Shown: one piece after another, positions 4,840 to 63,770 of the stretch
How positions within the stretch are numbered: the first letter of the stretch is position 1
Layout: every line of letters starts with the position of its first letter
Program-made: the position numbers and the translations under genes
Assembly: GCA_012295275.1 (NCBI GenBank)
Contig: CM022675.1
Span: forward strand, 11,780,001 to 11,844,000
DNA length: 64,000 bases
Origin: Chrysomallon squamiferum
Taxonomy: Eukaryota; Animalia; Mollusca
Reading direction: 5' to 3'
Notes under the pieces: generated by a model
Seen by the model: the letters and a program-made list of their open reading frames with translations, nothing else
Told to the model about the DNA's origin: nothing
Databases searched by the model: none

Positions 4840-13306
<8,467 letters not shown>

Positions 13307-15677: not shown

Positions 15678-32437
<16,760 letters not shown>

Positions 32438-42822: not shown

Positions 42823-43802
42823 CTGTCAGCTAGGACGAGGGTTGGTGTCAAAAGGTGACAGATTTGTTTCAGTTACAGCGCGATGCATCTTTGCCGAGTT
42901 AAAGCGGTTTGTGTTACCCTTTTACCGTTTTCGCGTCCATCTCTTCCGGTCATTCTCCAGTCTGTCCAGTTAAACGGCTGGACACTCCAGATGCATTAAT
43001 TTGCTTTCAGAGCTGGAACAGCTTTACAAAATGAGCACCGTTTTTTTGCTTTTACCGTTTAAACTTCGGTAAATATTTCTGCTTCAAATACGCGTGTCTG
43101 CTGCATTGTTGTTTTTTTAAATTTAATTTTGTAACTGTCAAGCAATTTATTTCCTTGTTGTACAGATCATTATTATTATTATTATTATTTATTCGTATTC
43201 GTTCGTTCCCTCATCATCTCTATGTCTCTGCGTCTTACTGTCAGTTATTAATCAACCATTTTTATACAGAATTACAAACACTGAAGGTTCATGCACGCCT
43301 ATCATGCCATACAAATAAGGTTGGTTCGATCAAGTCTGAGTTAATCAGTTACAAGATTAATAAAGATGAAGACAGGAACCATAGTCACCATTCTCTATAA
43401 TTAGTTCAATGGGACGCGATCTCAGAAACTGTGAATCTTCATTCCGATGGTTTTACATCTGCGTAGATTAGAGAAGCTACGATTACAGAAATAATTTTAC
43501 AGGGTTCTCGGAAATACTTTGTAATGAAGCCAAAACGACAGACAAGTAAGTAATGAGATCAAGACAAACAGCGCTAGTTTCAAAATATAAGTTTATTTAT
43601 GGCATATTTGACTTAACAATAACTTAATATAAATATATAATTTACAGAAGATAATATTTCAGTAATATAGATAATTACAATATGTACACAAGTTATGGCA
43701 GATATACAGATATAACGTAATGGTTTGCAATGTACAGCGATTAAAATACATTATATATCTGAAATCTACTGTTCATTGGCTGTATAATTAATAATACTTG
43801 GA

Positions 43803-43935
43803 TTATGTAGTTCAGTGACTCAACGACTTGTCTGACACGTGGCGAATCGCAGGATCAATCCTTGTTAGTGCGCCTGCGAAATATTTGCCCGTTCCAACAA
43901 TTGCTCAGAGGCAGTTTTCAAAGTGCGTGCTTTTC
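43803..43935 (+). mobile_element. Degenerate tRNA-derived SINE-like fragment, within the presumed 3' UTR of the TTC25-like paralog
   Basis: An A-box-like TAGTTCAGTG (43808) and a B-box-like GGATCAATCC (43852) occur at tRNA-like spacing. They are followed by CCCGTTCCAAC, a core also present at 21549, 21592 and 27096. No complete cloverleaf is evident. Confidence 0.45.
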
Positions 43936-44708
43936 TAACAAGCTAAAGTGTACGTTTCAGTTATATATATTACATAGATTATTGTTTCAACAATATGAAT
44001 GTCATTCAATATTTATATAGTATATATGTACATACCTAGATAACATCCTATGTACACAATATGATTTTTCTAGATGGCTAGAATAATATGTATAAATTAT
44101 TATTGTGCTGAAATGACTACATTTGATTATATTTTATGATTAATTTATTCTATTAAAGTTTTACAATACAGACATATAGATTTTTATCTATATTTATGGA
44201 GAAATATTATTTAAAAATAGTATGTATTATTTTTACTGCTAATAATCATACATCTTATTATGAGATGATCATCATCTAATGAAAAACAGCCAGTAGTATT
44301 TATCATAACACTGAACTAGACCAACGGAAATATTAAATTAATTTATCATAAACAAATATTGTTCACAATTTTGTAAGAATTCAGATATATAGTTCATGAA
44401 CGTTGGAAAAACGTCATAAAAAAAATATTCTTTTTTTTAATTTAATTTTTTTTTTATCGTTTATACTATCTTTTTTTTACATCTGAGTACCGAACAGACA
44501 GACAGACAGACAGACAGACAAGAACAATGTTCTTATTATACTATTCAGTAAGTCCTCATATATATTTACACACTGCTTCAAATACGCATGAATCTCTAGA
44601 TTCACTTAAAATGGCTGCATGAACAAACTGGTCACAGAAGTATAGTAAATACAAACGTTATGATTGATTAGTTTTGTTCAATATATATATATATATGTCT
44701 GCTAATTT

Positions 44709-47700
44709 CTAGAGTACTTCTGCAGTCTTATCATCTTTTGGGTCAGAACAGTCTACTCCTGGAATGTTATCGAGATTTTCAGATCTGTGTTCCCTTCTGG
44801 ACTTTCTGCCGCTATCCACGGACACTTTATTACTTGCACTTCTTCCGCTGTATCGCGGAGCATCATCATTTGCAGTGTTACCTTCGAGATCTGCAATTAA
44901 TTCTGAGAATGCTGCGTCGTCGATAAACTTCTGTTCGTCTCCGTCTTTACTCTGATCTCTTCGTGAACTCTCTCGATTTTCTCTTTCGTTTTTTAGTTTG
45001 CTTTTCCGTCACGTTGTTTACTGCCTGGTTATCGATAGCTTGTGAAATGGTTTTGTCTTCTAGGCTTGCATTGTCACGTTCCCTTTGAGAGTGGCGAGAT
45101 TTTCTGTACTCTGCTATGGAATCCATCGTGTCTTCTTTCACCAGTTCTGGTTTCTGTTCGGTTAAATCTGTACTAGATTCTCTGCTGCCATGGCTATGTC
45201 TTCTTCTGGAATGTCTGGATTTTCTCGGCTTTAAATCACCCGCGTCTATGGCACCTCCGTCTACTCTAGAGATGTCTTCCACGCTTAGACTGCTACGTTC
45301 TCTTCGAGACTGACGAGATCTTCTGCTGTGTTTTCTGTCAGTGTCATCATCAGCTACAGATTCCATGGTGTTTTCTTTCACAAGTTCAGGTAACTCAATG
45401 CTAGGTTCTCTGCTTGCTTGACTGTGTCTTCTTCTAGAATGTCTCGATTTCCTGTGTTCTTTTACATTATCGTCCGCAGGCAAATCGTCAATAGTCTCTG
45501 AAACAGTTTTACCATCCAGATTTAGATTGCTGTGTTCCCTTCGAGATTGACGAGATCTTCTCCTGTGTTTTCTATCAGTATCATCATCAGCTAAGGATTC
45601 CATAGTGTTTTCTTTTACAAGTTCAGGTAACTCAGTGCTAGGTTCTCTGCTTGCTTGACTGTGTCTTCTTCTAGAATGTCTGGATTTCCTGTGTTCTTTT
45701 ACATTATCGTCCGCAGGCAAATCGTCAATAGTCTCTGAAATAGTATTACCATCCAGACTTAGATTGCTGTGTTCTCTTCGAGACTGACGAGATCTTCTCC
45801 TGTGGTTTCTGTCAGAGTCATCATCAGCTACAGATTCTTTTGTGTTTTCTTTCACAAGTTCAGGTAAATCAGTGCTAGGTTCTCTGCTTGCATGACTGTG
45901 TCTTCTTCTAGAATGTTTAGATTTTCTCGATTTTAAGTCATCTGCGTCCATTGTTCTTTCACCTGGCTGTTCGACACTTCCATCTGCTCTAGTGATGTCT
46001 TCCACGCTTAGATTGCTACGTTCTCTTCGAGACTGACGAGATCTTCTGCTGTGTTTTCCAGCAGTATCATCCATCAGCTACAGATTCCATAGTGTTTTCT
46101 TTCACAAGTTCAGGTAACTCAGTGCTAGGTTCTCTGCTTGCATGACTGTGTCTTCTTCTAGAATGTCTGGATTTTCTCTGCTTTAAATCTGTGGAGTTTG
46201 CGGCTGTTTCTTCCACACCTTCCGGGTGTTCCACAGTTCCATCTAATCTAGAACTGCCTTCCTGACTTAAGGTACTGTGTTCCCTTCGTGATCGTCTGGA
46301 TTTTCTATGACTCTTTCTGCTGTCGTCTGCAGGCAGATCTGTCTCATCGACAGTTTGTGAAATAGTAATTTCTTCTTGACTGATGTTACTCTTTTCCCTT
46401 CGCGAATGACGAGATTTTCTGCTGTGTTTTCTTCGAGTATCCTCGTCAGCTACAGATTCCATAGTGTTTCTTTCACAAGTTCAGATTTTGTTCAGTTAAA
46501 TCAGTGCTAGGTTCTCTGCTTGCATGACTGTGTCTTCTTTTAGAATGCTTGGATTTTCTGGGTTTCAAATCAGCTATGTCTACGATTGGTCCGTCTGGAT
46601 GCTCTATATTATCACCTAATCTGGAGATGTCTTCCACACTTAGATTGCTGTGTTCCCTTCGAGACTGACGAGATCTTCTGCTATGTTTTTTATCAGTGTC
46701 ATCCTCAGCTACTGATTCTATCGTGTTTTCTCTTACATGTTCAGGTTTCTGTTCAGTTAAATCAGTGCTAGGTTCTCTGCTTGCTTGGCTATGTCTTCTT
46801 CTAGAATGTCTGGATTTTCTGTGTTTTATATTGGCTGCATCCATAGATCTTTCTTCTGGATGTTCAGCATTACCATCTATTCTAGAGATGTCTTCCTGAC
46901 TTAGATTGCTACGTTCGCGAGATCTTCTGCTATGTTTTCTAGGAGTATCACCATCAGCTACGGATTCCATTGTGTTTTCTTTCACAAGTTCACATTTCTG
47001 TTCAATTAAATCAGTGCTAGGTTCTCTGCTTGCTTGACTACGTCTTCTAGAACGTCTGGACTTTCTTTGTCTTTTGTCGGTCTCGTCATCATCTGCAGGC
47101 AAATCTTTATCACCGACAGTCAGTGAAATAAAGTTGCCTTCTTCACTTACATTACTTTTCTCTCTACGCGAATGAGATCTTCGTTTTCGTTTCTTAGCAA
47201 TGTCCTTATCAGCCAGAGATTCCATGATGTCTTCTGTCAAAAGTCCAGTCTTTTGTTCAGTTAGCTCAGTACTAGGTTCCATACTCACAATGCTGGGTCT
47301 TCTTATAGAATGTCTTTTGTTTTCATTTGGCTTTCTTCATTTGCGTCCTTTGCGCTCTTATCAAAGTCTTCTGGATGTTCGACTGTACCATCTAATCTAG
47401 AGCTTTCTCCCTGGCTAACGTTACTTTGTTCTCTTCGTGACTGAGACTTTTCCTGTCTTTTCTATCAGGATCATCATCAGCTACAGATTCCACTGTGTTT
47501 TCTTTAATGGTTTCTGATTTCTGTTCAGTTAATTCAGTGCTAGGTTCTCTGCTTGCATGACTGTGTCTTCTTCTAGAATGTTTAGATTTTCTCGGTTTTA
47601 AGTCATCTGCGTCCATTGTTCTTTCACCTGGCTGTTCGACACTTCCATCTGCTCTAGTGATGTCTTCCACGCTTAGATTGCTACGTTCTCTTCGAGACTG

Positions 47701-50700
47701 ACGAGATCTTCTGCTGTGTTTTCTAGCAGTATCATCATCAGCTACGGATTCCATGGTGTTTTCTTTTACAAGTTCAGGTAATTCAATGCTAGGTTCTCTG
47801 CTTGCTTGACTGTGTCTTCTTCTAGAATGTCTGGATTTCCTGTGTTCTTTTATATTATCGTCCGCAGGCAAATCATCAATAGTCTCTGAAATAGTATTAC
47901 CATCCAGACTTAGATTGCTGTGTTCTCTTCGAGACTGACGAGATCTTCTGCTATATTTTCTGTAAGTATCATCATCAGCTACAGATTCCTTTGTGTCATC
48001 TTTGACAACTTCAGGTTTCTGTTCAGTTAAATGAATGCTAGGTTCTCTGCTTGCTTGACTGTGTCTTCTTCTAGAATGTCTGGATTTCCTGTGTTCTTTT
48101 ATATTATCGTCCGCAGGCAAATCATCAATAGTCTCTGAAATAGTTTTACCATCCAGACTTAGATTGCTGTGTTCCCTTTGAGACTGACGAGATCTTCTCC
48201 TGTGTTTTCTATCAGTATCATCATCAGCTACAGATTCTTTTGTGTCTATTGTTACAAGTTCAGGTTTCTGTTCAGTTAAATCAGTGCTAGGTTCTCTGCT
48301 TGTATGACTGTGTCTACGTCTAGAATGTCTGGATTTCTTGTCTTTTAAATCTGCGGTGTCTACGGGCGTTTCATTCATACCTTCTGGATGTTCCACAGTT
48401 CGACCTAATCTAGAACTGCCTTCCTGACTTAAGGTACTGTGTTCCCTTCGTGATCGTCTGGATTTTCTATGACTCTTTCTGCTGTCGTCTGCAGGCAGAT
48501 CTGTCTCATCAACAGTTTGTGAAATAATAGTTTCTTCTTGACTGATGTTACTCTTTTCCCTTCGCGACTGACGAGATCTTCTGCTATGTTTTCTTCGAGT
48601 ATCCTCGTCGGCTACAGATTCCACTGTGTTTTCTTTCACAAGTTCAGATTTTTGTTCAGTTAAATCAGTGCTAGGTTCTCTGCTGGTATGACTTCGTCTT
48701 CTTCTAGAATGCCTGGATTTTCTGGGTTTCAAATCAGCTGTGTCCATGATTCTTCCATCTTCGACATTTCCATCTGCTCTAGTGATGTCTTCCACACTTA
48801 GATTGCTGTGTTCTCTTCGAGACTGACGAGATCTTCTGCTGTGTTTTGTGTCAGTATCATCATCAGCTACAGATTCCATGGTGTTTTCTTTTACAAGTTC
48901 AGGTAATTCAATGCTAGGTTCTCTGCTTGCTTGACTATGTCTTCTTCCAGAATGTCTGGATTTCCTGTGTTCTTTTACATTATAGTCCGCAGGCAAATCG
49001 TCAATAGTCTCTGAAATAGTATTACCATCCAGACTTAGATTGCTGTGTTCCCTTCGAGACTGACGAGATCGTCTCCTGTGTTTTCTATCAGTGTCATCAT
49101 CAGCTACAGATTCCTTTGTGTGATCTTTGACAAGTTGAGATTTTTGTTCAGTTAATTCAGTGCTAGGTTCTCTGCTTGCATGACTGTGTCTTCTTTTAGA
49201 ATGGCTGGATCTTCTGTGTCCTTTTTGATTGTCATCTGCAGGTGGATGAATATTGTCAGTAGTTTGTGAAATAGTTTCACCCTCGAGATTTAGGTTACCA
49301 TTTTCTTCTTGCAAATGACGATCTTTTCTGCTCTGTTTTCTGTCAGCGTTATCATCAGCTACAGATTCCTTTGCCTCTTCCTTCACAAGTTCGGGTTTCT
49401 GTTCTGTTAAGTCAGTGCTAGGTTCTCTGCTTGCTTGGCTATGTCTTCTTCTAGAATGTCTGGATTTCTTCTGCTTTGCATCAGTTACATCCATGGTGCT
49501 TTCATCCAAACTGTCTGGATATTCGGCAGTGCTCTCCAAGCCTTGAAATATTTTCCACACTTAGATTGCTTCGTTCTCTCCGCGAACGGAGTGACCTTCT
49601 GCTCCTTCTTTCACTCTTCTTATCGGTTAAAGTCAACAACTCTGCATCTGCTTGTTGACTAACGGATTCTACGTTGTCGTCAACACTTTCAGTACTAAGT
49701 CCACTTCGCGAATGACGAGACCTTCGTCTATGCATTTTATCAGTGTTATCATCAGCTACAGATTCTTTTGTGTCTATTGTTACAAGTTCAGGTTTCTGTT
49801 CAGTTAAATCAGTGCTAGGTTCTCTGCTTGTATGACTGTGTCTACGTCTAGAATGTCTGGATTTCTTGTCTTTGAAATCTGCGGTGTCTACGGGCGTTTC
49901 ATTCATACCTTCTGGATGTTCTACAGTTCGATCTAACCTAGAACTGCCTTCCTGACTTAAGGTACTGTGTTCCCTTCGTGATCGTCTGGATTTTCTATGA
50001 CTCTTTCTGCTGTCGTCTGCAGGCGGATCTGTCTCATCAACAGTTTGTGAAATAGTAATTTCTTCTTGACTGATGTTACTCTTTTCTCTTCGCGAATGAC
50101 AAGATTTTCTCCTATGTTTCCTATCAGCGTCATCATCAACTACAGATTCCACCGTGTCTTCTTTCACAAGTTCAGATTTCTGTTCAGTTAAATCAGTGCT
50201 AGGTTCTCTGCTTGCATGGCTGCGTCTTCTTCTAGAATGTCTGGCTTTTTTGGATCTGTCATCTGTTGCTGCCAAGATATTATCAGACAGTCCATCAGAA
50301 TGTTCAGCTGTACTGTCTACCCTGGAGGTGCCTTCCTGACTTAGAGTGCTGTGTTCTCTTCTGGAGCGTCTTGTTTTTCTATGCCTTTTGTCAGTTTGCT
50401 TCTCGTCTGCAGGCAGATGACTTTCGTCAACGGTCTGTGATATAGTAACATCTTCCTGACTTACGTTACTCTTTTCCCTTCGTGAATGAGATCTTCGTTT
50501 TCGCTTTTTGGCAATTTCTTATCATCCAGGGATTCCATGACGTCCGTTTTTAAGAGTCCAGTTTTCTGTTCGGTTAGCTCTGTATTCTGTTCCATACTCG
50601 TACTATCTCGTCTTTTTATAGAATCTTTGGATTTTCTGCGTCGTACGCTAATTGTGACGTCATCCAAACGTTCTGGATGTTCGACTGTACCATCTATTCT

Positions 50701-53700
50701 AGAGCTGTCTTCCTTACTAACATTACTATGTTCTCTTCGTGATCGCCTCGACTTTTTCTCTCTTTTCTCTGTCTTATCACCCGCTGTTTGTGATACAGTA
50801 TTATCGTCTTGACTTACGTTGCTAAGTTCTCTTTTCGAACGTCTGGGCTTTCTGCTTGTTTTCTCAGTTTGTTGATCCGTTACAGCTTCCTTTTCATTGT
50901 CAGTGGTTTGAGTTTTGTCTTCCTGGCTTTTAATACTGCGTCTTCGTGTACGTCGAGATTTTCTGCTGTTCTTTTCACCCATGGATTCCGTGCTGTTTTG
51001 TTTTACAAGTCCAGACTTACGTTCACTTAGATCTGTACTAGGTTCTCTGCTTGCGTGGCTCTGTCTTCGTTTAGAATGCCCGGATTTTCTCGGTCTAACC
51101 TCAGTGGAAGCAATGGTTCCATCGTCCAATCCTTCACCTATTCTAGAAGCATCTTCTTGACTTACCGTGCTGTGCCTTCTGCGTGAGTGTTTGGAACGTC
51201 CGTGTTTTTTCCTAGTTCGTTTTTCGACTTTGTGCGTATCGGATAGATCGGGAAGGCCTTGTAAAGCAGAATGATCCTCCTGGTCTCTCGGGGAACGATC
51301 AGATGCTTTGCTGTACTTTCCAACAATTTCTTCAGCACCTGTAGATTCTTCTTCGACAAGTCCTACAATACTAGGTTCCCTGCTTGCACGGCTACGTTCT
51401 CGTCTCGAATGTCTGGACCTCCTTTGTTTGACTTCAGCAGCAGCAGCTACGATGTCGTCGTCAATACTTTCTGGATATTCGGCTGTGCTCTCTAGCCTAG
51501 ATATATTTTCCAGGCTTAAGTTGCTATATTCTCTTCTCGAATGTCTGGATCGTCTCTCTAGCTGTCTGTCAGTGAAAGAGCTGTCTAATGACGCCAGTTC
51601 TATGTCGTTTTCTGAATCTACCAGACGTTTTGAATGGCGCGATCTTCTACTCTTTCTTTCCACTGAAGCTTCGTCTGATGATAGATCAAGAATTCCGTTT
51701 CGAGAGTCAAACATCTTATCCCTGCTGAAATTGCTTCGTTCTGAATACGCCGATTTCAGAAAGCTTCTCTCGCGTTGTCTTTCACTCGAAGGTTCATTTC
51801 TCTGCTCGTCAGTATCAACGCTTTCTTGCGACTCTTTGCTTGTTTTTCTTTTTCTAGAACGCTTTGATCGTCTGATGCTTCTCTGAATCGACCTGTCTGT
51901 CAGTATTTCATCCACATTTTCCTCATCGTCGCTCTCCTTCTGAGAAGCTATGGAATACTCTTTGCTAACAATGCTTTGTTCTCGTTTTGAACGCCTCGAT
52001 CGCTTACGACTTCTCTTGCTTTGGGCATCAGCAGAGATTTCGTCAGCTTGCTTTTTGTCGCCAGTGGTTTCCTTCACAGCACTCCTATCTCTATCGCGAC
52101 TACTTCTTTCTCTTTTATGATTTTTCTTTGCGCGCAATCTTTCTTTGGAGATTTCTCGTTCAATCTCCTTTTGTGGTTTTTCCTTTTTGGATTCCTTAGA
52201 CGTGAAAATTCTTCCATAGTAAATGACTCCGTTTGGCGATATGGGTTCGGAATTATCAGCTCGTTTCGATTCGGATTTTGGATCTTTTTCTCTGCTGGTG
52301 TCTTTGTTTTTTCGTCTTGAACTTCGTGATTTTCTCTGTTTTCTTTCTGACGATTTACTGAACGAATCTTCTTTGGATACAGCGTCATTCAAGCTTTCTT
52401 TGTCTGCAATTGTTTTATCTCTTTTCGAATGTCTGGAACGCTTTCGGCTTCTTCCTCTTTCACTTCGAGTTCGTCTGTTATCAACAACTTCGCCTTCTTT
52501 GTTCAACAGGTTTTGACTTTGACTATCCCTTTTCCTTCTTCTTTTTGATCTTCTTCGTCTTTTTCCCTCAGATAACGAAGACTGCAGAAGCTGGATGTCA
52601 GGCGACGTTTTAGATTTAATGAGTGACTCACTTAAGCCTAAGCTTTTAACCGACTGAAAACCTAAATCGATCAATTTTCCCCAATTTCCTCTTGAACTTT
52701 CTCTGGCGTTCTCACTGTGCTGCCGATGCCTGCTGCGCATGCTCGGATCGTGGCTCGACAGCATTTCCTTTCGTTCAGCGACAAGCTCGTCGTCTGACGT
52801 TTTGTTGGCTGATATCGCAAGCTCCACAATGAGGAAGAACTCTTTCCGTCCCCACCTTCTTGTTTCCCTCCCATCGGTTTTCTCGAACCTATCTTCTCCC
52901 CTGGGAATGTGCTCGGTCTTTTCTCTGTGCTTCTTTTTCACTTTTTTCTCTTTGTCTTCCTCTTTGGTTTCCTCGGTTTTGTCTGCCTCTTCGGTTTCTT
53001 CTTTGATTCCCTCTTTCTCTTCTTTAACACTGGATTCTTTCTCTTCAGACTTTAACTCGTTCTCTTCCAAATCGTTTTTCTTGTTTGCGTCGTCTTCACC
53101 AGATACCGACTTGTCTAATTCTCCCGCCTTTTGTTCTTTGCTTTCATCTTTATCAGAATCATCCATTTTAACTTCAGGTTGATCTGCTGCCACTTTTAAA
53201 CCATCAGGACTCTTCTTTTTATCTTCTCCAGTTTCAGTTTCTTTGATCACCGGCGTCATCTTCTTCCTTTATGTCCGTCGTTTCTTGTTTGTCATCAGGT
53301 TCTTTCATTAATCTTTCTTCTTTCACTTCGCCTGCTTCTGTCGCAGTTATTTCGTCAGCTTGGGACGTTTTCGTCTCAGTTCTTTCAGGCTTTTCTCCTT
53401 CAGTCTTTTCCTCGTGTTTACTTCTACTTCTGGAATCCACGGTGTCAGTTGTCGTTACGGTTTGGTCTTGTTGCTTTTCGGAAGAAGGTGAAATCGATTG
53501 TTCTGTTCCCTCATCCGTTAAGCTAGATCCAACAGCATCATGCGACAAAGCATCAACTTCTGCATGTTTATCCTCGCTTGCAGTAACTGTTTCATTATCT
53601 TCAGTGGTACTTTTCCCTGTAATGCCACCACTTCCTCCTGTTTTACGTGAAAGTCCTGCTTTCTTTGAAATTTCTTGCGTCGTGTCTGACGAGTCATCTG

Positions 53701-56700
53701 TAGAAGATTTCTCTGCATGATCTTCACTGATGCTCCCATTAATATTTTCCTTTGAAGCTGTAATTTCTGTGGATGCATCCAAATCTTTATCTTCCTCTTT
53801 CTTCCCTAAACTTTTATCCGACATTCTTCTATGAGAAGCGTCTTGATCTTCAGCATATTCCGTTGTACGCTCCTCATCTTTCAGTTGTAAATCTCCGTCT
53901 ACTAAGACATCAGCTTTTTTCTTACTGTCTAATAAATCAGTTTGATCCTCAGAAACTGTCTTCGTTTCAGCGACCTCAGTTTCGTCTGTAATTTTGCTCA
54001 AGGGTTCGCCTGTGACAGATCCAACGACTACAACTCCACCTCTTTCAGTATCTTCTTTCTTTTTTTCAACACCCAGTTTGTGTTTCGATTTCCTACGCTG
54101 TTTAGGCCCGGTATGCAACTTTTCTTCTTTCTTTCCACCTGGAATCGAATCAGTCGTAGAATGCTGTTTAGAAGTTTCGTGTCTTGAAAGATCGGTTTTT
54201 CCTGTAACATCCACATGATAATGCGAATCTTTCACGTGTGGTTGTTTTGCTGCTGCATCTTTAGATTCTTCTTTGTGCTTTGTTTTCTCGACATTTTGTT
54301 TTTGTTTAGGTACAGAACGAGGACTAGTGATTGATTTTAAGGTTTTTCTCTTTTCTTCGACATCTTTGTGATCTGCTACAGTTACAACATGAGGGTACAA
54401 GTTTCCTAAAGACTCTTTCCGTTTACTTTTCACTTCTCCTGATGTTTTGACTGCTCCATCTTCCGTTTTTCCTGCGGGTTTTGTATCATCTTCACTCGAT
54501 AATGCTTCAGTAGGTCTGTCAGAACGGATGATCGTTTGTCCCTCAATAACTAATTTAGAACTCAACGGTCTCTCACGAGTTAAACTATTTCTTTTGACGA
54601 AGTCTTTCTTTTCTTCCATGAACTCATCGTATCTGGATTTCCTAGAGCTTCTGCCGTCATCTTGTTCTTGTTCTTGATCTTCCGACGCAGATTTTTCCTC
54701 CGTCAAATCAGTGGCGTCTACGCTTGGGATAACAACGTCCTTGTCTCCGTGGGATTCAACTTTATCCATTTCATACTTCATCGTTTCCTCTTTGATCTGG
54801 TCAAGCCTGTCGAAGAACTCCTCGGTATTTTCCGTTTGCAGCTTTGCTATGTGATCCAAGTTCATCTGCAGTTCCGTCTCTTCCGTGGACAAACCGATCT
54901 TCGATCCACGTCTCAGCTTGGACATCCCGGCGTAAGAACTTCTTCGAGCAGGAGAAACGGGACCTCTGGCCGGCGACACTGACATGCTGCTGGAACGAGA
55001 GCGACTTGCCGATGTCGCAGACGAATACGCCGTGTCTCGATAATTCAGAAACGTTTTCAGGTGTTTGACCTTAGCAGGCGATACTGAATCCTTTCTTGAG
55101 CGCGCTGGACTTATCGGTTTAAAAGGAGAACGCAACACTTTCAGATTCTGTTGTCCTTCGGTAGATAATTTGTTCTTGTCTTCTAAAGCCAAACTCTCTT
55201 TCTGTTTGATGTCTTGCAGTTTCTTGTACAACTTCATTGTCGGCGAGGCCTGAAAACCTGGCTTACTAAACACCATGCATCTTTGATCTATTTCTTCCTG
55301 GCTTTCTTCTTCTTTTTCTTTTTCTTTTTCTTCTTCTGCTTGGCTTTGAATAATCTTCAGTGAGACGTTACTTTTTTCCCGTTCTTTCTTACTTTCTGGT
55401 TTCAAGTTTTTCGATTTGTTTTTTCTCAAATGTCTCTTCCTCCTTTTCTTCCTTTATTCCCTGTATTTTCTAGGAGTTATATCCTCATCGGATTCTTTGT
55501 TAAGTTTATACAGTTCTAATTTTTCCACTAGGGATGTTTTCCTTTTCTGAATGTTGAGTGGTGTTTGAACTGACGTCTGGTAACTTGTTGACCCGGCAAT
55601 GTCCTGTTTCAGTCGAGGACTGAGCGTAGGCATCTGATAATCGTGCTTTTTCGATTTTACAGACGTCTGCGATTTTTGCCGTGGGGTTGTAGCAAAAGTT
55701 GTAACGTCTGCGCATATGGCGCTGGAGTCGCCTCTGTTTTCTTCCTTGGAGTAGTTGCAGTTGCTTCATGAGATGTTTTTGTGTGTTTCACAGGTTTTCT
55801 TCTGGGCGTTGAAGTGACGAAGTCGAGACCTGGTTGTTTCATCGATGATGAAAACTGACCAATGTCAGGTAACGTGGTTGCGTGTACTGATCTGATCGGC
55901 TTTTGTGATTTATATTTCAGTACGTCTCGAGCTTCTGCTAAAGACATTAAGGCTGTCTGTCGTGGTGGTACAGTGAGCTTCTCTTTGTACGGTGCTTTCA
56001 GCACTGGCGTTATTAATGTTTGCTGTCTTGGCGATACGACCATTTTCTCGCTGTGAGGCAATTTTAACGACAGAGAAGTGAGAGTTCGCTGTCGCGGTGT
56101 GATGCTAGGAGCTCTCTCTGACTTCGACGTCAGAGAAATCTGCGACTTCTGTCTCGGCGTTCTCTGAGTGTTTGACCTCGAAGACACGGGAGTCTGGGCC
56201 GCCTTCCTTGGGGTTCCAAAAGCATTCATCAGCGGAGCCGTGGGCGTGTACGCCGTCTTCTGACGCGTGAGCTTCTGCTTGTAGACGTTCATCACTGTAC
56301 TCGCCGATCTGACTCGCTCCACGGTGCTGTCTCGTCTTCCCACGACGCCCTCGCTCTTGCTTCGTCTCAGCTCCATGTCTTTGTCTGTCTTGCCTCTGCC
56401 CAACCCTGATCGAGCTGCCCACGTCGATCCCATCTTAGATTTCTCTCTCATCTGCAGCGAAAACTCCGGTTTGTATATCGACTTGGGACCTGACGCGTCC
56501 CGTCTGGGAGACTTTTTCGTTTTAGTCTTTTGATGCTGCTCCTCCGCTTTCTTATCCACCTGGTCTGATGTGCCAGTTCGTTTCAGGTCGGAATATGATT
56601 TGGTTCCTGATTCTGGAACAATTAATTGGAATTTTCTGCTTTTACTGTGCAACGTTATGCTCGGTGGGTCCGACTCCAGGATTCCTTCAATGTCCGATTT

Positions 56701-59700
56701 TCTAACGACTTTAGTCCGAGCTAAAATGCCGTCGATTTCACTTTGATCGTCCGTGGAATCAGACAGAAGAAATCGCGTGACACGCACTGGTCTTTCCTTA
56801 AAAGACGTCGACAAATTGTGCTCACTAGCTTCCCTTATTATAGACGTTGTCATAATCCCTCCTTTCTTCGGCATTGCTGGCCTGATAAGCATTCCACTTT
56901 CTTTCTTTAGTTTAAGATCAGAAAATTGAATTTCCTTCTCCTTGCTGATCTTTTCAGTTGGGAAGCCGCCAGAAGCATGAGAAGTACGTCCTGTGGTATC
57001 TTGAGCTAAAGCTTTTTCTTCAGAATCGCTTCCATAACGAACTTTGGCGTTAAAGATTTGATCATCTGCTGCAATGTAGTGTTTTTTAATACTTTCTTCC
57101 TCAACTTGTTCCTTAGTGGAATCCTTTTCTGAATACGTCAGACCAACGTCTGCATCAACTGTGGACTCGTCGACAATCACGACTTCATAGTCAAGCTTAT
57201 CATTAATGCCATCACCAGCCTCTGAAAGCTCCATTCTATTTTCTTGCGAAATGATTGGACAAGCAACGACTGTGCCATTTTTCTTAGCATCGGCTTCTAC
57301 CTCTTTCTGTTCACTGGATAAATCAGAATCGTCTTTTTCTGCACCTTCGACTAGTTTGGTTGCAGATCCTTTTTCTCCGTTCAGTTTATCTGCTAACGTG
57401 TTCTCAGTATTTTGTAATTTGGCGATCAAAAATCGATATTCTCATCTTTCACTTCAGCATTAAGTTCTTTAGACTCTACGTCCAAATGTTTCAGATTGTC
57501 TTCGGTTACAGCAGGTACATCAGTTGTGTTTAAATCATCATTTTGTTGTTCTGTAGTTCTTTCTTCGGGATGTGTCTCCACATCTATGTCTATTTTATTA
57601 GCCTCTTCGTCATCTTTAACAGGAGGTGTTCCTGGAGCGTTAACTTCTCTTTCTGTTTCAAACTGGCCAGACGATACATAGGTTTTTCTTGCTGATGATC
57701 GTTTTAATATACGCCTGTTTCCTTGCATTGTCCTTGGTGTATCTGATCGTGACATTGTGTCGGTTTCAAACCTGCTGCTTCTAGAAGAAAAACTGGATCT
57801 TGCCGGCAAAGAGGTTCTTCTGATGGCTTTCAGATTTGACCTCGGTGCTGACCTGCTGCGATCGGCATCAAACCTTCTGGATCTGGATACAATTCTAGAT
57901 CTCGATCTCGATCTTGGAAAATGCGTGTTTTCTCCTGCTGCTTTTTCTTTCTGGATTTTCGGTGACACAAAACCGTTTTCTCCATCGCTGATCGATGTCA
58001 CTTTTAACTCATCTAGATTAGCACTCTCTGTTGCATCAGCTCCATGTTCTAAGTTTGGGTCTATCTGTATATCTGTCTCCGTATCTTTATCTTCAACAGG
58101 TCCATCTTTAGAAGCTTCTTCTGCTTCGGTATTCAAAACCTTTTCTTCATTACTTTCGGCTGCAATGATTTCTGCAGCTGCTGCAGATTGAGATGTCGAC
58201 AGTTCTGCTCTCGTTCCTGTTGCAGCATCTTCTGCGAACGTTTCCTTCTTATCATCAAATTCGTTAGCTTCGTCAGGATGCGTATGAACATCTTCGTTAT
58301 TTTGTTGCGAGAATTCGTCCTCGTTCATCGCGTTAATAAACAAAGTCCTTTCAACATCGTCCCACTGGTCGTTTTCTGTCGGGCTTTCGTCCACGGTTTC
58401 TTCCGAGGTTTCGTCGTGTTCTTTGATAGAATTCATCGCGCTCTCAGACAAACTGCTAGACCGTCCATTCAGACTTCTACTTCGTTTCGATTTACCTTTG
58501 CGCGATTTCTTCTTGACAACTTGGAATTTGCTGATTATGGCTTTCTTAGCCTTGTCTTCGTCGCTGTCTTGTGGTATATCAGTTTCGTTTGGAGTTTCCA
58601 GGATTTCAGGTTCCAAAACCTTCTCGGTTTCTAAAGTTTCCTCAGCAACCAAAGTATTCTCAGCAACTAAGGCGGACTCTGTGTCCAAGGTTACTGCATC
58701 TTTCCCATCTGTATTTGAAGGCACTATGGGCGATTCGTCTAGAGCTGGAATATCTGTTTCCATATTCTCTGCTGTTGAACTATCTTCAATTTCAGTGCCT
58801 TCTTTGACGTTTAAATAACTGTCTTTGCTAGTAAAACTTGTATCGACGTCTGCAGTTTTTGTGTCTTTCAGCCTCGTCCAAAACGTCTTTGAAATCTGTT
58901 CCCTGGATTTGCTGAACCTCGAGCGACGTTCCGTCTGTTCTTTAAGTTTTAGCGCGATTTTCTGTTTCCTGGTGAGCTTTTTCACTATGACGTCAGAACC
59001 TTTGTCTTCTTCGTCTGACGTTATAATCGGTTCGGGTTCTGGGTCTTCTTCCACAATTGGCGTTACTATGGTAACGCCACGCCGTTGCCTTGTCGCTTTC
59101 GGTGGGCCTTTGGTCAAAGGCAACACGTCGGCTTTATGTCCTGATTGGCTAATACCAGCATTTCCTTTGACGTCATCAACTCGGGATTAGTCGATATAAG
59201 CGACGCACCTCTGAACCTCAAACTTTGTTGATTTGGAATCATTGTGATCTTTGCGACATCTTCGACGATTTTGTCCGTTGATTTTATCAGGTTTCTCCTG
59301 GGACTCGGTTTGCCGAGACGTTCGTGAACCTGTGGGCCAGATTCTCTGTGAAGGGGAATGTGTAATTCGGAACTCTGCTTTTTCTCACTTTTTGCGTTGT
59401 CCTCACTTTTCTTTACACCAATGACAGACGAATCAGAAACAGGATCACTAGAAAATCCTTCCGTTACGTCATCCTTATCCTGTGCAAGTGTCTTCGACTT
59501 TTCTTTTTCACCTTCCTCGTTTAACAGACGAGTTTTGCTTTCGCTCCTTACACTATCCTCGTCTGCAACGACAACACCATTATCTGCAACACTGCTGTCC
59601 TTTATTTCTTTTTCAGAATCTTTTTCCTGTCCTGCTTCAGAATCCTCTTTTTCTTTTTTAACAATTTCACCTAGTTCACCGCCATCTTTGTCCTTGCCGT

Positions 59701-60261
59701 TAACTTCCTGCGGTGATTCTAGTGTCACTGAAGACTGTGGCAAAGACAGACTCTCCATTTGTGAATCGACAGTTACATCATCAGCAATTAAACCCACATC
59801 TGTTTTAGCATCTCCACCACTTTCCGGATGAGCATCGTTTTCTGATTTTCCTTTTTCTGAAACACTCTCTTTCCTCAATTCTTTTTGCTCGTCAACTCGT
59901 TCTTCGCCAACATTCGGCTTTTCCACCTCTTCCCCGACCTCTGATTCACGTTCAGGATGTGTTATCCCACTTGCCACAGCAGACTGGTTCCCATCTGTTC
60001 CGCTGTCCACAAGACGTTCTCTCGGAGTCTTCTGGTCCTGTGAATCGTAGTCGGTTTCGTAATCGGTGAATTCTTTGTCGGTGTCGTAAGACGAATCTAG
60101 CTTCTGTGATGAGATGAGAGGCCGCATGGAAGCGACTTTTCTTCTAGGGTATCCCGTCCGGTTCTGACTCAGTTTTCTTGCTTGTTTTCTTTCCATCAGG
60201 GTGATGTGCTTGTTCAGGTTTTCCATTGCTTGGGTTATCGCTGCTACTGTTTCTTGGTCAT
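44709..60261 (-). CDS. Giant terminal coding exon of the TTC25-like paralog (about 15.5 kb, about 5,200 aa, rich in E/D/K/S/R, predicted disordered), interrupted by small indels
   Basis: Abutting or overlapping minus-strand ORFs 59114-60226, 57426-59126, 55657-57429, 53234-55429, 50461-53259, 49502-50275, 47392-49560, 46473-47288, 46067-46462 and 44947-46074, plus a final frame to 44709. No AT-rich or microsatellite intron-like gap occurs in this stretch, unlike the real introns elsewhere in the window. Confidence 0.8.
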
Positions 60262-60282
60262 CTGATAAAATAATAATAATAA

Positions 60283-60316
<34 letters not shown>

Positions 60317-63300
60317 ATACCGTTTACTTGATATGAACTTTCGTTTCTGTACGTGGTAAAGATTCTAAACTTGTAAATTAATTATTATGTTTGTGTGTAG
60401 TTGTTTTGGCATTCTATCTATCTATCTATCTATCTATTAGTGTGTGAATGAATTACGTGAGACTATTAATAAAAACGTGTTCATACCTTTTATTTTAGCC
60501 ATATCCAGAGCCATCTCAAATGCTCTGTAGGATTCTGAATACTTCTTCAGTTTTGCTGAAAATAATCACGTACAAATTCTAGAAATATCTGTCAAACAAA
60601 ATATATACTCTACCACAACAAATGATGCTTATTTACAGAAATGCAATTAATCCAGGTGTTTCCACAATATACTTTCGAATATTAAATTATTTCCCGATCT
60701 AGAAAGTACTCAGTAATTAGTGTATTAAAATGCCAAGGCTTTCTTATCGTACGGAAATGTCAATCATGCTGCTAATCAAAAGAGAACCCTATAGTACATC
60801 CTATTTATTATTATCATTCCATTAATGACTATCTGATAACATTAGAAATTATACACACGAATTCACATATGTAAAAGCTATATATATATATATATATATT
60901 TAATATTTTAATAATAATCCCATATTTGCTCCCTCATCGCTTGCCTCAGTGTTTTTAAAATATAGGCCAATATTAATTAATAATTTGTTTCTCACCTTCC
61001 GCCATGGCCAGAAGGAGACATGACTGAAACTGGTAGTGATCTATTTTCGCATCCTGGGCCGCGTGCAGAGCCTTCTTCCCACAATCCCTTGCGTAATCGT
61101 AATGGTCAAGCGCGATAAAGCACGTTCCGATCTCGAGGAAACACCAGGCGACTTCCGTGGACACGCGACACAGCGGAACTTTCCTCGACAAACTGAGAAA
61201 TGAAAACGTTTTTTTTTTTGCAAAATGGAAAAATTCAGAACAGACCTGGATTTGGCAAAGAAGGATGATGCTGAAATATCGCGTGGGTTTTTATCTGTCT
61301 ATTAATTAAACTCGAAAACCAGACCAGTTTTACTTGTCAGGTTGTTAACGTCACCGTAACACACTGGTTTTGTCATAAAATTAATTTTTATCCTTTAACT
61401 CTTAACGCTGCTATTACTGGCTAAGTCCTTAGTTTATTACTTGTACAACAGTCATCATTTTAATAATTATCACAACTATCTTCATCAACGATGTGACGTT
61501 GGTACAACGATTATCAACTGTATGAAACGTTCTGGCTGAAGATTTGCAAATGTCGTCAGGAATTTCATGAAATCGTCAAACGCGAAATGCCGACAAGAAT
61601 ATCACCGCTTATGCAATTCATTTTCAGTTTTAAAAGAATCTGTCAAAAAGGAAACAAGTACCATTCCTCTAACAACAAATCTGTAACAACTATACCAATG
61701 TATTTACTGAAATCCATTACTCATCAACACAACAACCTTCTTCTCACAGTCCTGAACAAAGAAAGTTTCCTGTAGTCAGTATCCTTAGTTTTACTTTCCT
61801 ATTTGACAGTCTTAGTTTTTATTTGTTAAAAAAACAAATCAATATAATAATGTATCTTCGTTAAAGGGATAGTTTAATCTAATTTACAGAATGTCGAGTT
61901 ATCAGTATACAAACCACACCTATGACGTCTGACATTTTAACTTGGCAGTTCTTTTCGGTATATGGGACTTGGCAATCACGGATTTACGGTAATGAAATAG
62001 ATAAGTAGCTTAGTACATTGGCACGAGTTTCTAATTAAATATTATCCCGTATGGAACCGAAGCCAAACCAGAGAATTTTGACCCAACGTTCTGCGTCAAT
62101 TATTGTTAGATTTGTTTTAATTTTTTTTTTTTTTTCATGTTCTGATTATTCATCTGCAACTCTTGGACATTCCCAGAATCGTCAGAAATATGGTCATTAT
62201 AATAAATACAACTGAAATATGACTATTCAAAAAAAAAAGAAAAAAAAAGAACAGCAGTTAAAATATGGTTGCCGACAGAAACACGAATAAAAGGAAAAGC
62301 TATTCGGTGAAACAGAAATAAAGATAAGGCTTTTCAGAATTGGCAACTACAAAGTCTACGCATGAAAAGTATTTAGGTGAATACCCTCCAGTGAATATGA
62401 CAAAGTATATAACCATATCCAGTTGTGTGTTTTTGTGTGTGTAAATCTTTGGTCGCATGTCTTAGAGTAAAGTCTGTTTAGCATGAATGATACTGTTTCA
62501 TAGTTGGCCACAGAAAGAAAAAACTGAATTTCGTTATTCCAGTTCTCTTTACTGTATAATACAGTCTTACAGTCAGTGAAAAGATTAAGCTCATTTGTTC
62601 TTCCATGAATGAGAAAATATCAAGAATAAAAAAAAGAAGTTGAGATATTACTATTAATTAAATATAATGGACAATATTTTGCTGATACAGTGTCTAAATG
62701 GAAAGAAAAAAATACGGATGTTCAAAGTTTTGAATAACAGAACGACTGAGAAGATGATTAAACACATTTATTGGAAATCAAAAGATTCCTTTCATTTTAT
62801 CCCATCAAAAACAGTGACAAATTAATAATCGTATTATCGGATGGTCAGATCTTTCGTAGTTTTAATTTGGATTGTTATCCGTCATGTTCAGGAAGTATAT
62901 TTTAGCCACAGTAGTGTGGTTTAAACGTATTTCCATGTATAGTTTGTAAAATCAGATACAACATTGTGCAAAGCATGTAAAAAGACTGTCAAATTATGTT
63001 GCTGTAAATATTTCATTTTTGTTGTCTTTAAATTATCGTTTTCGGTTGTAAAGATTACTAAATGATAGGATTTTCTTTCTCTGTTCTCTATTTTTTCAAA
63101 CGTGAGAGAGAACGCACCTAAGAACATTTCCTGATTATAATTACATTCTGTTATGTATACATTTTACACAATTGGTCACTATAAAGAAGGAAACTAGAGA
63201 ACTGCCACGGTGTGAATGTATATTTTATAATCGAGCTGTTTATCAACTTTCTGAGTGTTACACAAAATCGTGCTGTATGTAAACGACATTATTTCATTTT

Positions 63301-63770
63301 CTTAAATTAACAGACAAGTAACCAATAGAAATTCAGTGCAGCCGTGTTTACGACTACTATTTTCAGTATTAATTAACAACTACTACTGATATAGCTATTA
63401 CTACTGCTAATATTGATGATCCAGCACCAACTACAACTACAACTATTTCTTTTTCTAGACTGTTCTTGCTGTTGCCTCTGTATCGCTGTTACTGCTACAA
63501 CTACTACTACTGTGTCTAGTATAGTTATTAATAACATTAGTGCTGCTTTAACTACTACGACTTTTACTGTCACAAGACCAGTTGCTACTGCTTCCGATAC
63601 TATAACTGTTACTACTACTACTACTACTACAACTACTACTACTACTACTGCTCTTATTTGAAAAAATATGTAAATCAACGTACGCATTCAGTGCTTTGTT
63701 ATATTTCTTCATCAGGATGTACATTCTTCCAAGATTACCGAGAGCTCTTGATGTTACTTCCTGCATTCCC
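44709..63770 (-). CDS. TTC25/ODAD4-like TPR paralog with a giant low-complexity C-terminal tail; 5'-partial (upstream exons lie beyond the window end)
   Basis: Exons 63770-63684 (GMQEVTSRALGNLGRMYILMKKYNKALNA, 87 nt), 61192-60996 (LSRKVPLCRVSTEVAWCFLEIGTC..QFQSCLLLAMAE, 197 nt) and 60555-60487 (AKLKKYSESYRAFEMALDMAKIK, 69 nt) align to TTC25 exons 8-10 with identical lengths and phases. The next acceptor at 60261 opens DDQETVAAITQAMENLNKHI (compare GDVSAQNAIKKAIADVNHKI in TTC25). A chain of overlapping long ORFs follows, ending at TAG 44711-44709. Confidence 0.85.
45100..51450 (-). repeat. Coding tandem repeat array, about 22 units mostly of 228-396 nt (consensus ..KSRHSRRRHSHASREPSTDLTEQKPELVKENTMESVADDDTDRKHSRRSRQSRREHSNLS..)
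   Basis: The core ctaggttctctgc, or a close variant, starts on + at 45173, 45401, 45638, 45875, 46125, 46507, 46768, 47017, 47272, 47540, 47789, 48038, 48287, 48671, 48914, 49163, 49418, 49815, 50199, 51038 and 51371, with a degenerate copy near 50590. Confidence 0.95.

What the first reader, a model, noticed from the sequence alone, without database searches (positions are those of the whole stretch)
44709..63770. A giant TTC25/ODAD4 paralog: dynein-docking TPR core fused to a charged disordered tail of about 5,200 aa in one exon of about 15.5 kb
Seen: three TPR exons (87/197/69 nt, same phases as TTC25 exons 8-10 in this window) splice into an exon whose first 25 or so codons are homologous to TTC25 exon 11. 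That exon is 339 nt in TTC25 but runs 60261->44709 here with no intron-like gap. Known: TTC25/ODAD4 is a subunit of about 600-700 aa of the outer-dynein-arm docking complex (with ODAD1/2/3/5), normally with a modest C-terminal tail. Inference: a duplicate acquired a tail of over 500 kDa and may be a specialised axonemal or sperm-flagellar docking subunit that tethers the complex to accessory structures. I am not aware of such a protein being described, and gene predictors would probably split it into unrelated fragments.
Basis: partly seen in the sequence, partly recalled or inferred. Interest (0 to 1): 0.88.

Follow-up and report, generated by a model that had tools for sequence, protein, structure and literature searches.

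The report
Dynein-docking paralog with giant disordered tail
In a snail, an old duplicate of the cilia gene TTC25 ends in a 15.5-kb exon whose frame breaks are mostly absent from other individuals' DNA, so it likely encodes a charge-striped, predicted disordered tail of about 5,200 amino acids that would coat a specialised, probably sperm, flagellum.

Summary
The gene is real. Three TPR exons (87/197/69 nt) match the window's own intact TTC25 and splice in frame into an exon at 60261. In the raw window that exon is not one ORF: it has 14 frame breaks. Contigs of five public DNA runs carry the frame-restoring indel at 9 breaks directly and at 2 by net length; 3 are inferred from sister repeats. 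Repaired, it is 5,186 codons (about 590 kDa), ending at 44709, and about 96% predicted disordered. Its 3' third is an array of ~83-aa repeats under purifying selection (omega 0.39 against 0.80-1.1 in neutral simulations; no stops).

The TPR part is not a recent copy of the neighbouring TTC25. It belongs to a mollusc-wide TTC25-like clade whose annotated members have tails of 190 aa or less. No relative of the tail was found.

Not shown: a spliced transcript, the tissue, the N-terminal exons (outside the window), or any dynein docking. Best reading: a cell-type-specific, likely sperm, docking-complex subunit carrying a phospho-tunable polyampholyte brush.

Verdict: new variant of a known kind; interest 0.62.

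The parts
63684..63770 (-). TPR exon, 87 nt (counterpart of TTC25 exon 7063-6977); earlier exons lie beyond the window end
60996..61192 (-). TPR exon, 197 nt; best named relatives Aplysia (59%) and Haliotis asinina (53%) TTC25-like proteins; best PDB sequence hits are ODAD4
60487..60555 (-). TPR exon, 69 nt
44709..60261 (-). Giant terminal coding exon, 5,186 codons after repair of 14 frame breaks; stop codon at 44711-44709; 38.8% A, 62% purine
60160..60261 (-). Closing helix of the TPR solenoid (about 33 codons), homologous to the start of TTC25 exon 5712-5374
56660..60160 (-). Acidic, predicted disordered block (residues ~35-1200, net charge -0.07 per residue)
55585..56660 (-). Basic Ser/Thr/Pro-rich block (residues ~1201-1560, net +0.13 per residue, 13 S/T-P sites); microtubule contact is inferred only
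50270..55585 (-). Mixed-charge and Arg/Ser/Lys-rich blocks, grading into degenerate repeats
45090..50270 (-). Array of 19 anchored repeats of 76-132 aa (mode 83); basic and acidic blocks alternate every ~42 residues; 34 R[RK]x[ST] motifs; omega 0.39
43592..44149 (-). Candidate polyadenylation signals (AATAAA starting at 44149 and 43597); use not tested
4840..13306 (-). Canonical TTC25/ODAD4 of the same window, 12 exons, 585 aa, intact; 88% identical to Gigantopelta aegis ODAD4-like over the TPR block (reference gene, not part of the finding)

Best explanation
[quoted passage not shown] Shown: exon structure and phase, clade placement, frame-restoring indels in other individuals at 11 of 14 breaks, selection on the repeats, composition and charge pattern. 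Inferred steps: (1) the upstream exons beyond 64000 resemble the Aplysia paralog, about 510 aa before the last exon; (2) the mRNA runs through the exon to a signal near 44149 or 43597; (3) the TPRs bridge CCDC114/151-type coiled coils at 24-nm spacing as TTC25 does; (4) one tail per 24 nm, each a coil of roughly 22 nm radius of gyration by a recalled scaling law, would be too bulky for an ordinary gill cilium and fits a sperm tail with peri-axonemal material better; (5) Arg-rich blocks would bind acidic tubulin tails or the tail's own acidic blocks, and phosphorylation at the R[RK]x[ST] motifs would tune the brush.
For: Frame. Indel rows at 9 breaks: 59132, 47447 and 47311 in 4 of 4 runs; 50517 and 53253 in 3 of 4; 57432 and 55465 in 2 of 4; 55695 and 55404 in 1 of 4 as rows. 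38 of 39 listed contig pieces from five DNA runs, and 18 of 19 that span a break, have the net length the repaired frame needs. One 4,491-nt contig has 103 substitutions and 8 gap letters, all at break sites. The neighbouring contactin-like gene shows a similar frame switch near 25170. Selection. Omega among 18 repeat units is 0.39 (MGK), lnL -2220.1 against -2255.5 at omega 1; 20 neutral simulations gave 0.80-1.1, and 0 of 500 neutral runs stayed free of stops. 14 of 18 raw unit lengths are multiples of 3, and the other 4 hold known breaks. Family. ODAD4 chains are the top three of nine PDB sequence hits for the exon and the top three for the Aplysia paralog. Precedent, from passages read: Drosophila TTC25 is restricted to chordotonal neurons and may be represented in sperm by the more distant CG15128 (PMC9349282); docking-complex subunits differ between cilia and sperm in Drosophila and Ciona (PMC6367277; PMC4427456); A-rich giant coding exons mark tissue-specific cytoskeletal isoforms, including spermatid CLIP1 (PMC10901741 section 9).
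Against: No spliced junction was seen. The one RNA run laid only 16 contigs at depth 2-6, some inside the giant exon, one listed piece in an intron and no depth in the bin holding the 197-nt exon, so it cannot separate mRNA from DNA. Three breaks (46488, 46468, 46072) have no direct support, because 22 indel rows were not displayed. One X5 contig (52849-53418, depth 31) is net +3 with 17 gap letters and does not fit the repaired frame. At 57432, X1 and X3 have cover without the listed rows. The paralog has lost 18 of 41 near-invariant TTC25 residues in this block, and the Aplysia relative has replaced the conserved middle motif of TTC25, so docking surfaces may be altered. Divergence at 0-fold against 4-fold sites is only modestly lower (0.194 against 0.251; transitions equal), a weaker signal than the codon model gives. 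The exon holds 4 AATAAA and 19 GTRAG, no fewer than synonymous shuffles give. Nothing here ties the gene to testis.
Confidence: 0.45

Rival explanations
1. The full-length protein is made but does not sit in the dynein-docking complex. The diverged TPRs bind other partners and the tail acts as a condensate or cytoskeletal scaffold in germ cells, at basal bodies or rootlets, or in the nucleus.
For: Only 23 of 41 near-invariant TTC25 positions are kept. The tail has nine K/R clusters and 94 RS dipeptides. The model of the Aplysia relative matched generic TPR solenoids such as LGN, and ODAD4 was not among the listed Foldseek rows.
Against: By sequence, ODAD4 is clearly the closest solved protein. 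The Aplysia relative keeps all three TTC25 modules. Sperm-specific docking paralogs have precedent.
Confidence: 0.25
2. The main TPR transcript ends or splices out early in the exon and gives an ordinary short-tailed TTC25-like protein. The long frame is a minor isoform or is expressed from an internal start as a separate protein.
For: An AATAAA lies at codon 217 and 19 GTRAG lie in the exon, not depleted against synonymous shuffles. All annotated clade members have tails of 190 aa or less. RNA cover is patchy.
Against: The frame is continuous from the TPR helix through 3,589 codons on directly observed indels alone. There is no long pyrimidine tract for an internal acceptor. Selection on the 3' repeats needs their translation.
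Confidence: 0.14
3. The gene is decaying: some breaks are real, it is a recent or segregating pseudogene, and the protein is truncated, for example before the last 600 codons.
For: 14 breaks in the reference; three without direct support; one discordant X5 contig. The canonical TTC25 of the same assembly has no break in 1.76 kb.
Against: Other individuals restore the frame at 11 of 14 sites. Several breaks sit in short base runs. The contactin-like gene has a similar break. None of 46 listed substitutions makes a stop.
Confidence: 0.07
4. The tail is a precursor that is cut to release Arg/Ser/His-rich pieces acting like protamine-like sperm chromatin proteins (resemblance recalled, not tested).
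For: Repeats carry Arg/Ser/His runs and kinase motifs.
Against: The array is net neutral (+0.012 per residue) because acidic blocks alternate with basic ones. No Pfam family reached its cut-off in any tail segment scanned.
Confidence: 0.05

Closest known systems
TTC25/ODAD4, TPR subunit of the pentameric outer-dynein-arm docking complex (PDB 7RRO, 8J07, 9CPC; PMC8595878, passages read)
   Same: Homologous C-terminal TPR block, identical exon sizes and phases, same closing helix.
   Different: About 35% identity, separate clade (100/99), 18 of 41 near-invariant residues changed, and a tail of about 5,150 aa against 34-259 aa in the canonical proteins examined; docking untested.
Mollusc TTC25-like proteins (Aplysia XP_035825870.1, Haliotis asinina XP_067687130.1, H. 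rubra XP_046573375.1, Potamilus KAK3577960.1, Mizuhopecten XP_021376018.1)
   Same: Same clade, 38-58% identity over the TPR block; in two unnamed loci the equivalent exon is also the last coding exon.
   Different: Their annotated tails are 26-190 aa. The nearest row in the tree (H. asinina) is annotated without the last exons, so its tail is unknown. No functional study was found.
Drosophila CG15128 (Ttc25like)
   Same: A distant TTC25 paralog proposed to stand in for TTC25 in sperm (PMC9349282, passage).
   Different: Orthology with the mollusc clade was not tested; no giant tail is mentioned in the passages read.
Giant A-rich coding exons of cytoskeletal proteins (ANK3 7.8 kb, ANK2, MAP2, MAP4, NIN, spermatid CLIP1; PMC10901741 section 9)
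   Same: A long, A-biased (38.8% here; over 33% there), purine-rich coding exon adding a huge segment to a cytoskeletal adaptor.
   Different: Those are cassette exons in vertebrates; this one is terminal, twice the ANK3 exon, partly built of tandem repeats and shows no detected sequence homology to any protein.

Membership tests
TTC25/ODAD4 family (broad) | C-terminal TPR block closest to ODAD4 by sequence | tested here: met
   Top three PDB hits are ODAD4, E 2e-6 to 1e-5; next hit E 0.1; 30-38% identity to TTC25 proteins over ~136 aa
TTC25/ODAD4 family (broad) | Shared exon sizes and phases with TTC25 | tested here: met
   87/197/69-nt exons and acceptor phase match the window's TTC25
TTC25/ODAD4 family (broad) | N-terminal TPRs and middle helical module | not testable with these tools
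   Upstream exons lie beyond 64000 and no genome is held; present in the Aplysia relative P0168
Canonical TTC25 orthologs | Groups with vertebrate, hemichordate and mollusc TTC25 | tested here: not met
   Falls in the 11-row TTC25-like set, split from 18 canonical rows at 100/99; the window's other gene is the ortholog (bootstrap not fully settled)
Canonical TTC25 orthologs | Near-invariant residues of the TPR block | tested here: not met
   23 of 41 kept, against 41 of 41 in the window's TTC25
Mollusc TTC25-like clade | Monophyly with annotated TTC25-like proteins | tested here: met
   11 rows at 100/99; sister to H. asinina P0055 at 96/89; unrooted 145-column tree, no clade test run
ODA docking complex subunit | Binds CCDC114/151 and ARMC4 with 24-nm periodicity on doublets | not testable with these tools
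ODA docking complex subunit | ODAD4-like solenoid fold | tested here: inconclusive
   Relative P0168 models as TPR solenoids, pLDDT above 90; Foldseek lists generic TPR proteins and ODAD4 is not among the rows shown
Giant A-rich coding exons | Multi-kb coding exon with more than 33% A | tested here: met
   15.56 kb, 38.8% A
Giant A-rich coding exons | Tissue-restricted inclusion | tested here: inconclusive
   One low-depth RNA run as contigs, no junction
Transposon- or virus-derived ORF | Mobile-element domains in the long frame | tested here: not met
   8 raw tail segments against Pfam-A gave two sub-threshold DUF hits only

The most novel reading that the evidence does not exclude
A lineage of snails built a dynein-docking subunit of about 650 kDa from one 15.5-kb exon. 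Anchored every 24 nm on all nine doublets, its phospho-tunable, charge-striped tail forms a polymer brush that itself makes the peri-axonemal matrix of the sperm tail, so the dynein dock doubles as the template of an accessory structure.
Probability: 0.25. Interest if true: 0.85.

Novelty: new variant of a known kind. Interest (0 to 1): 0.62.

Why it matters
If expressed as one protein, it would be the largest TTC25-family protein met in these searches: 963 aa was the longest clade member. It would tie the outer-dynein-arm dock to a half-megadalton disordered polymer and give a concrete candidate for how invertebrate sperm attach peri-axonemal material. It also exposes an apparently unstudied mollusc TTC25-like clade with several subfamilies, a natural test of cell-type-specific docking complexes. 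Practically, it shows how about one assembly indel per kilobase can hide a giant exon from annotation.

Tried and rejected
- No whole genome is held, so upstream exons could not be read.
- Word search with the 197-nt exon among proteins of 115-2000 aa: 3 candidates, none significant. It missed the 445-aa Aplysia relative later found, so it is weak.
- Word search with 401 residues of the tail among proteins of 1253-3575 aa: 6,765 candidates, none at E 0.01. Proteins above 3575 aa were not searched with the tail.
- First tail segment in metagenome contigs: 454 pattern matches, no relative. The exon alignment found 3 loci, all of other subfamilies and none with tail similarity.
- ESM Atlas: short TPR clusters, top names TTC29 fragments. 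Rejected as the family assignment because alignments and exon structure point to TTC25; TTC29 itself was not aligned.
- Foldseek on the Aplysia model was uninformative.
- No depletion of polyadenylation or donor motifs beyond codon use.
- Polymorphism rows: 16 synonymous, 30 non-synonymous, 0 stops among the 46 rows displayed, of several hundred. Neutral expectation is 21-28% synonymous. Weak, and rows in the repeats may be mis-laid.
- RNA run X7 is no evidence for or against expression.
- A bacterial promoter scan was irrelevant.
- Earlier-findings look-ups returned nothing.
- Literature: ten full-text searches listed no paper on a giant-tailed or mollusc TTC25 paralog. The library holds open-licence papers only and no supplements were read.
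- Rejected: recent tandem copy of the neighbouring TTC25; transposon ORF; chance ORF.
Full report
**1. What is in the window.** The minus strand carries, in order, the paralog (from beyond 64000 to 44709), a contactin-like gene (about 31500-15800) and a canonical TTC25 (13306-4840, 12 exons, 585 aa, no break). One TTC25 exon is 87% identical to Gigantopelta aegis ODAD4-like and 72% or less in local identity to the other 49 hits, so the animal is likely a close relative of that snail. No whole genome is held.

**2. The observation.** Exons 63770-63684, 61192-60996 and 60555-60487 and the acceptor at 60261 have AG/GT ends and join in frame. Their sizes, 87/197/69 nt, equal those of TTC25 exons 7063-6977, 6568-6372 and 6076-6008. 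The joined peptide is 30-38% identical to TTC25 proteins over about 136 aa, running into the first codons of the big exon. From 60261 to 44709 the DNA looks coding throughout: GC 0.40-0.49, no microsatellites against 12% elsewhere. It is not one ORF as assembled. It is a chain of frames of up to 936 codons with 14 breaks; base shuffles never exceed 191 codons.

**3. Are the breaks real?** Ten runs were listed; five DNA-type runs and one RNA run were laid as contigs.
- Indel rows fall at 9 breaks: 59132, 47447, 47311 (4 of 4 runs); 50517, 53253 (3 of 4); 57432, 55465 (2 of 4); 55695, 55404 (1 of 4 as rows, further runs by net length). 22 rows were not displayed.
- These rows alone open 3,589 codons. 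One more base at about 49537, backed by a net -1 piece in X4, gives 4,598. 44967 is backed by net -1 pieces in X2 and X5.
- 46488, 46468 and 46072 are inferred from sister repeats, for example 1 short copy against 8 longer ones and 1 long copy against 7.
- Fully repaired: 5,186 codons, about 590 kDa, stop at 44711-44709.
- Of 39 listed pieces (39.4 kb, 530 substitutions, not independent), 38 fit that frame, as do 18 of 19 that span a break. The exception is X5 52849-53418, net +3 with 17 gap letters, unexplained. At 57432, X1 and X3 have cover without the listed rows.
- A conserved Ig exon of the contactin-like gene also switches frame near 25170.
Assembly indel error is therefore the likely cause. 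That is an inference: the reference animal's own reads were not identified.

**4. Is the tail under selection?** The 3' third is an array of 19 anchored units of 76-132 aa. 14 of 18 raw unit lengths are multiples of 3, and the rest hold known breaks. Over 79 codon columns of 18 units, Nei-Gojobori gives 0.49 (bootstrap 0.37-0.66), MGK gives omega 0.39 with lnL 35 better than omega 1, and GY gives 0.28. The same pipeline on 20 neutral simulations gave 0.80-1.1, and none of 500 unconstrained simulations was stop-free (median 27 stops). A plainer measure is weaker: 0.194 at 0-fold against 0.251 at 4-fold sites, with equal transitions. Repeats may also not evolve as a tree. The 46 displayed substitutions are 16 synonymous, 30 non-synonymous and 0 stops. 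Overall: moderate purifying selection and strong selection for an open frame.

**5. Anatomy of the tail.** A FoldIndex-type score.5% of windows disordered; Ser, Glu, Arg, Lys and Asp make up 53%. A single-sequence AlphaFold model of the first 375 aa gives one confident helix (residues 2-34, pLDDT about 90 over the first 20) and then mostly pLDDT below 50. Blocks: acidic to residue 1200; basic and Ser/Thr/Pro-rich 1201-1560; mixed; Arg/Ser/Lys-rich; then the neutral repeat array, whose charge alternates every ~42 residues and which holds 34 R[RK]x[ST] motifs (their reading as PKA-type sites is recalled). No Pfam family passes its cut-off.

**6. Relatives.** phmmer over 1.84 billion representatives gave 116 hits; names were looked up for 20 of them. 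The best full-exon matches that were named are mollusc proteins annotated TTC25-like or ODAD4-like: Aplysia 59%, Haliotis asinina 53%, H. rubra 51%, Potamilus 49%, Mizuhopecten 44%. A 29-row tree of the 145-column block splits 11 TTC25-like rows, including this gene, from 18 canonical rows at 100/99; the nearest row is H. asinina (96/89); the bootstrap had not fully settled. Annotated tails in the clade are 26-190 aa, and the H. asinina model stops at the 197-nt exon. In loci L001 and L002 the exon after the 69-nt exon runs about 150 and 65 codons to a stop, so the giant exon is an expanded terminal exon. Canonical and TTC25-like proteins share the same longest-contig size in H. rubra, H. asinina and Mizuhopecten, which hints at an old cluster. 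The paralog keeps 23 of 41 near-invariant TTC25 residues. No tail relative was found; these negatives are weak and length-limited. No G. aegis ortholog was among the 20 named hits.

**7. Expression.** Not shown. X7 laid 16 contigs at depth 2-6: seven listed pieces inside the giant exon, one in an intron, no splice joint.

**8. [quoted passage not shown] Docking subunits differ between cilia and sperm in Drosophila (PMC6367277 and PMC9349282, passages) and Ciona (PMC4427456, passages), and a distant TTC25 paralog is proposed for fly sperm. A-rich giant coding exons give tissue-specific cytoskeletal isoforms, some in testis (PMC10901741, passages and section 9). I therefore commit to a cell-type-specific, likely sperm, docking subunit whose tail forms a phospho-tunable brush around the doublets (0.45). 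The size argument, about 22 nm radius of gyration and 1.9 micrometres contour, uses a recalled scaling law. The gene-level claim, one intact giant terminal exon in frame with the TPRs, deserves about 0.85. Docking and tissue are inference only. Rivals: non-axonemal scaffold 0.25, early-ending transcript or separate ORF 0.14, decaying gene 0.07, protamine-like precursor 0.05.

**9. Novelty and verdict.** It is a member of the TTC25 family and of its mollusc TTC25-like clade, not a TTC25 ortholog, and not shown to be a docking subunit. Giant disordered exons and TTC25 paralogs are each known; their combination was not found in the protein searches or in ten paper searches (listings and abstract starts only, apart from the five papers named; supplements unseen). 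New variant of a known kind; interest 0.62, and 0.85 if the brush model holds.

Noticed in passing
window 31500-15800, minus strand: Contactin-like Ig/FNIII gene between the paralog and TTC25. Its Ig exon 25435-25145 switches frame near 25170, likely another assembly indel.
   Followed up: partly
window 13306-4840, minus strand: Intact canonical TTC25/ODAD4 (585 aa) with a short Ser/Lys/Asp-rich repeat tail in its 339-nt exon.
   Followed up: yes
proteins P0054-P0095, P0132; loci L001-L003: Molluscs carry several TTC25-family genes (at least four in Mizuhopecten: P0010, P0070, P0078, P0132), some apparently on the same scaffold as TTC25; no study of this clade was found.
   Followed up: partly
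window 52849-53418: One X5 contig (depth 31) is net +3 with 17 gap letters and does not fit the repaired frame: a ragged alignment or a real frameshift allele.
   Followed up: no
window 47311-47511: A dense cluster of substitutions shared by X1 (one haplotype), X4 and X5 marks a divergent haplotype inside the repeat array.
   Followed up: no
window 45616-49782: An X5 contig joins these two places, skipping 4,165 nt of the repeat array: collapsed repeats or a copy-number variant.
   Followed up: no
protein P0002 (Tegillarca, 1066 aa): Two TTC25 copies fused head to tail in one gene model, probably an annotation or assembly artefact.
   Followed up: no
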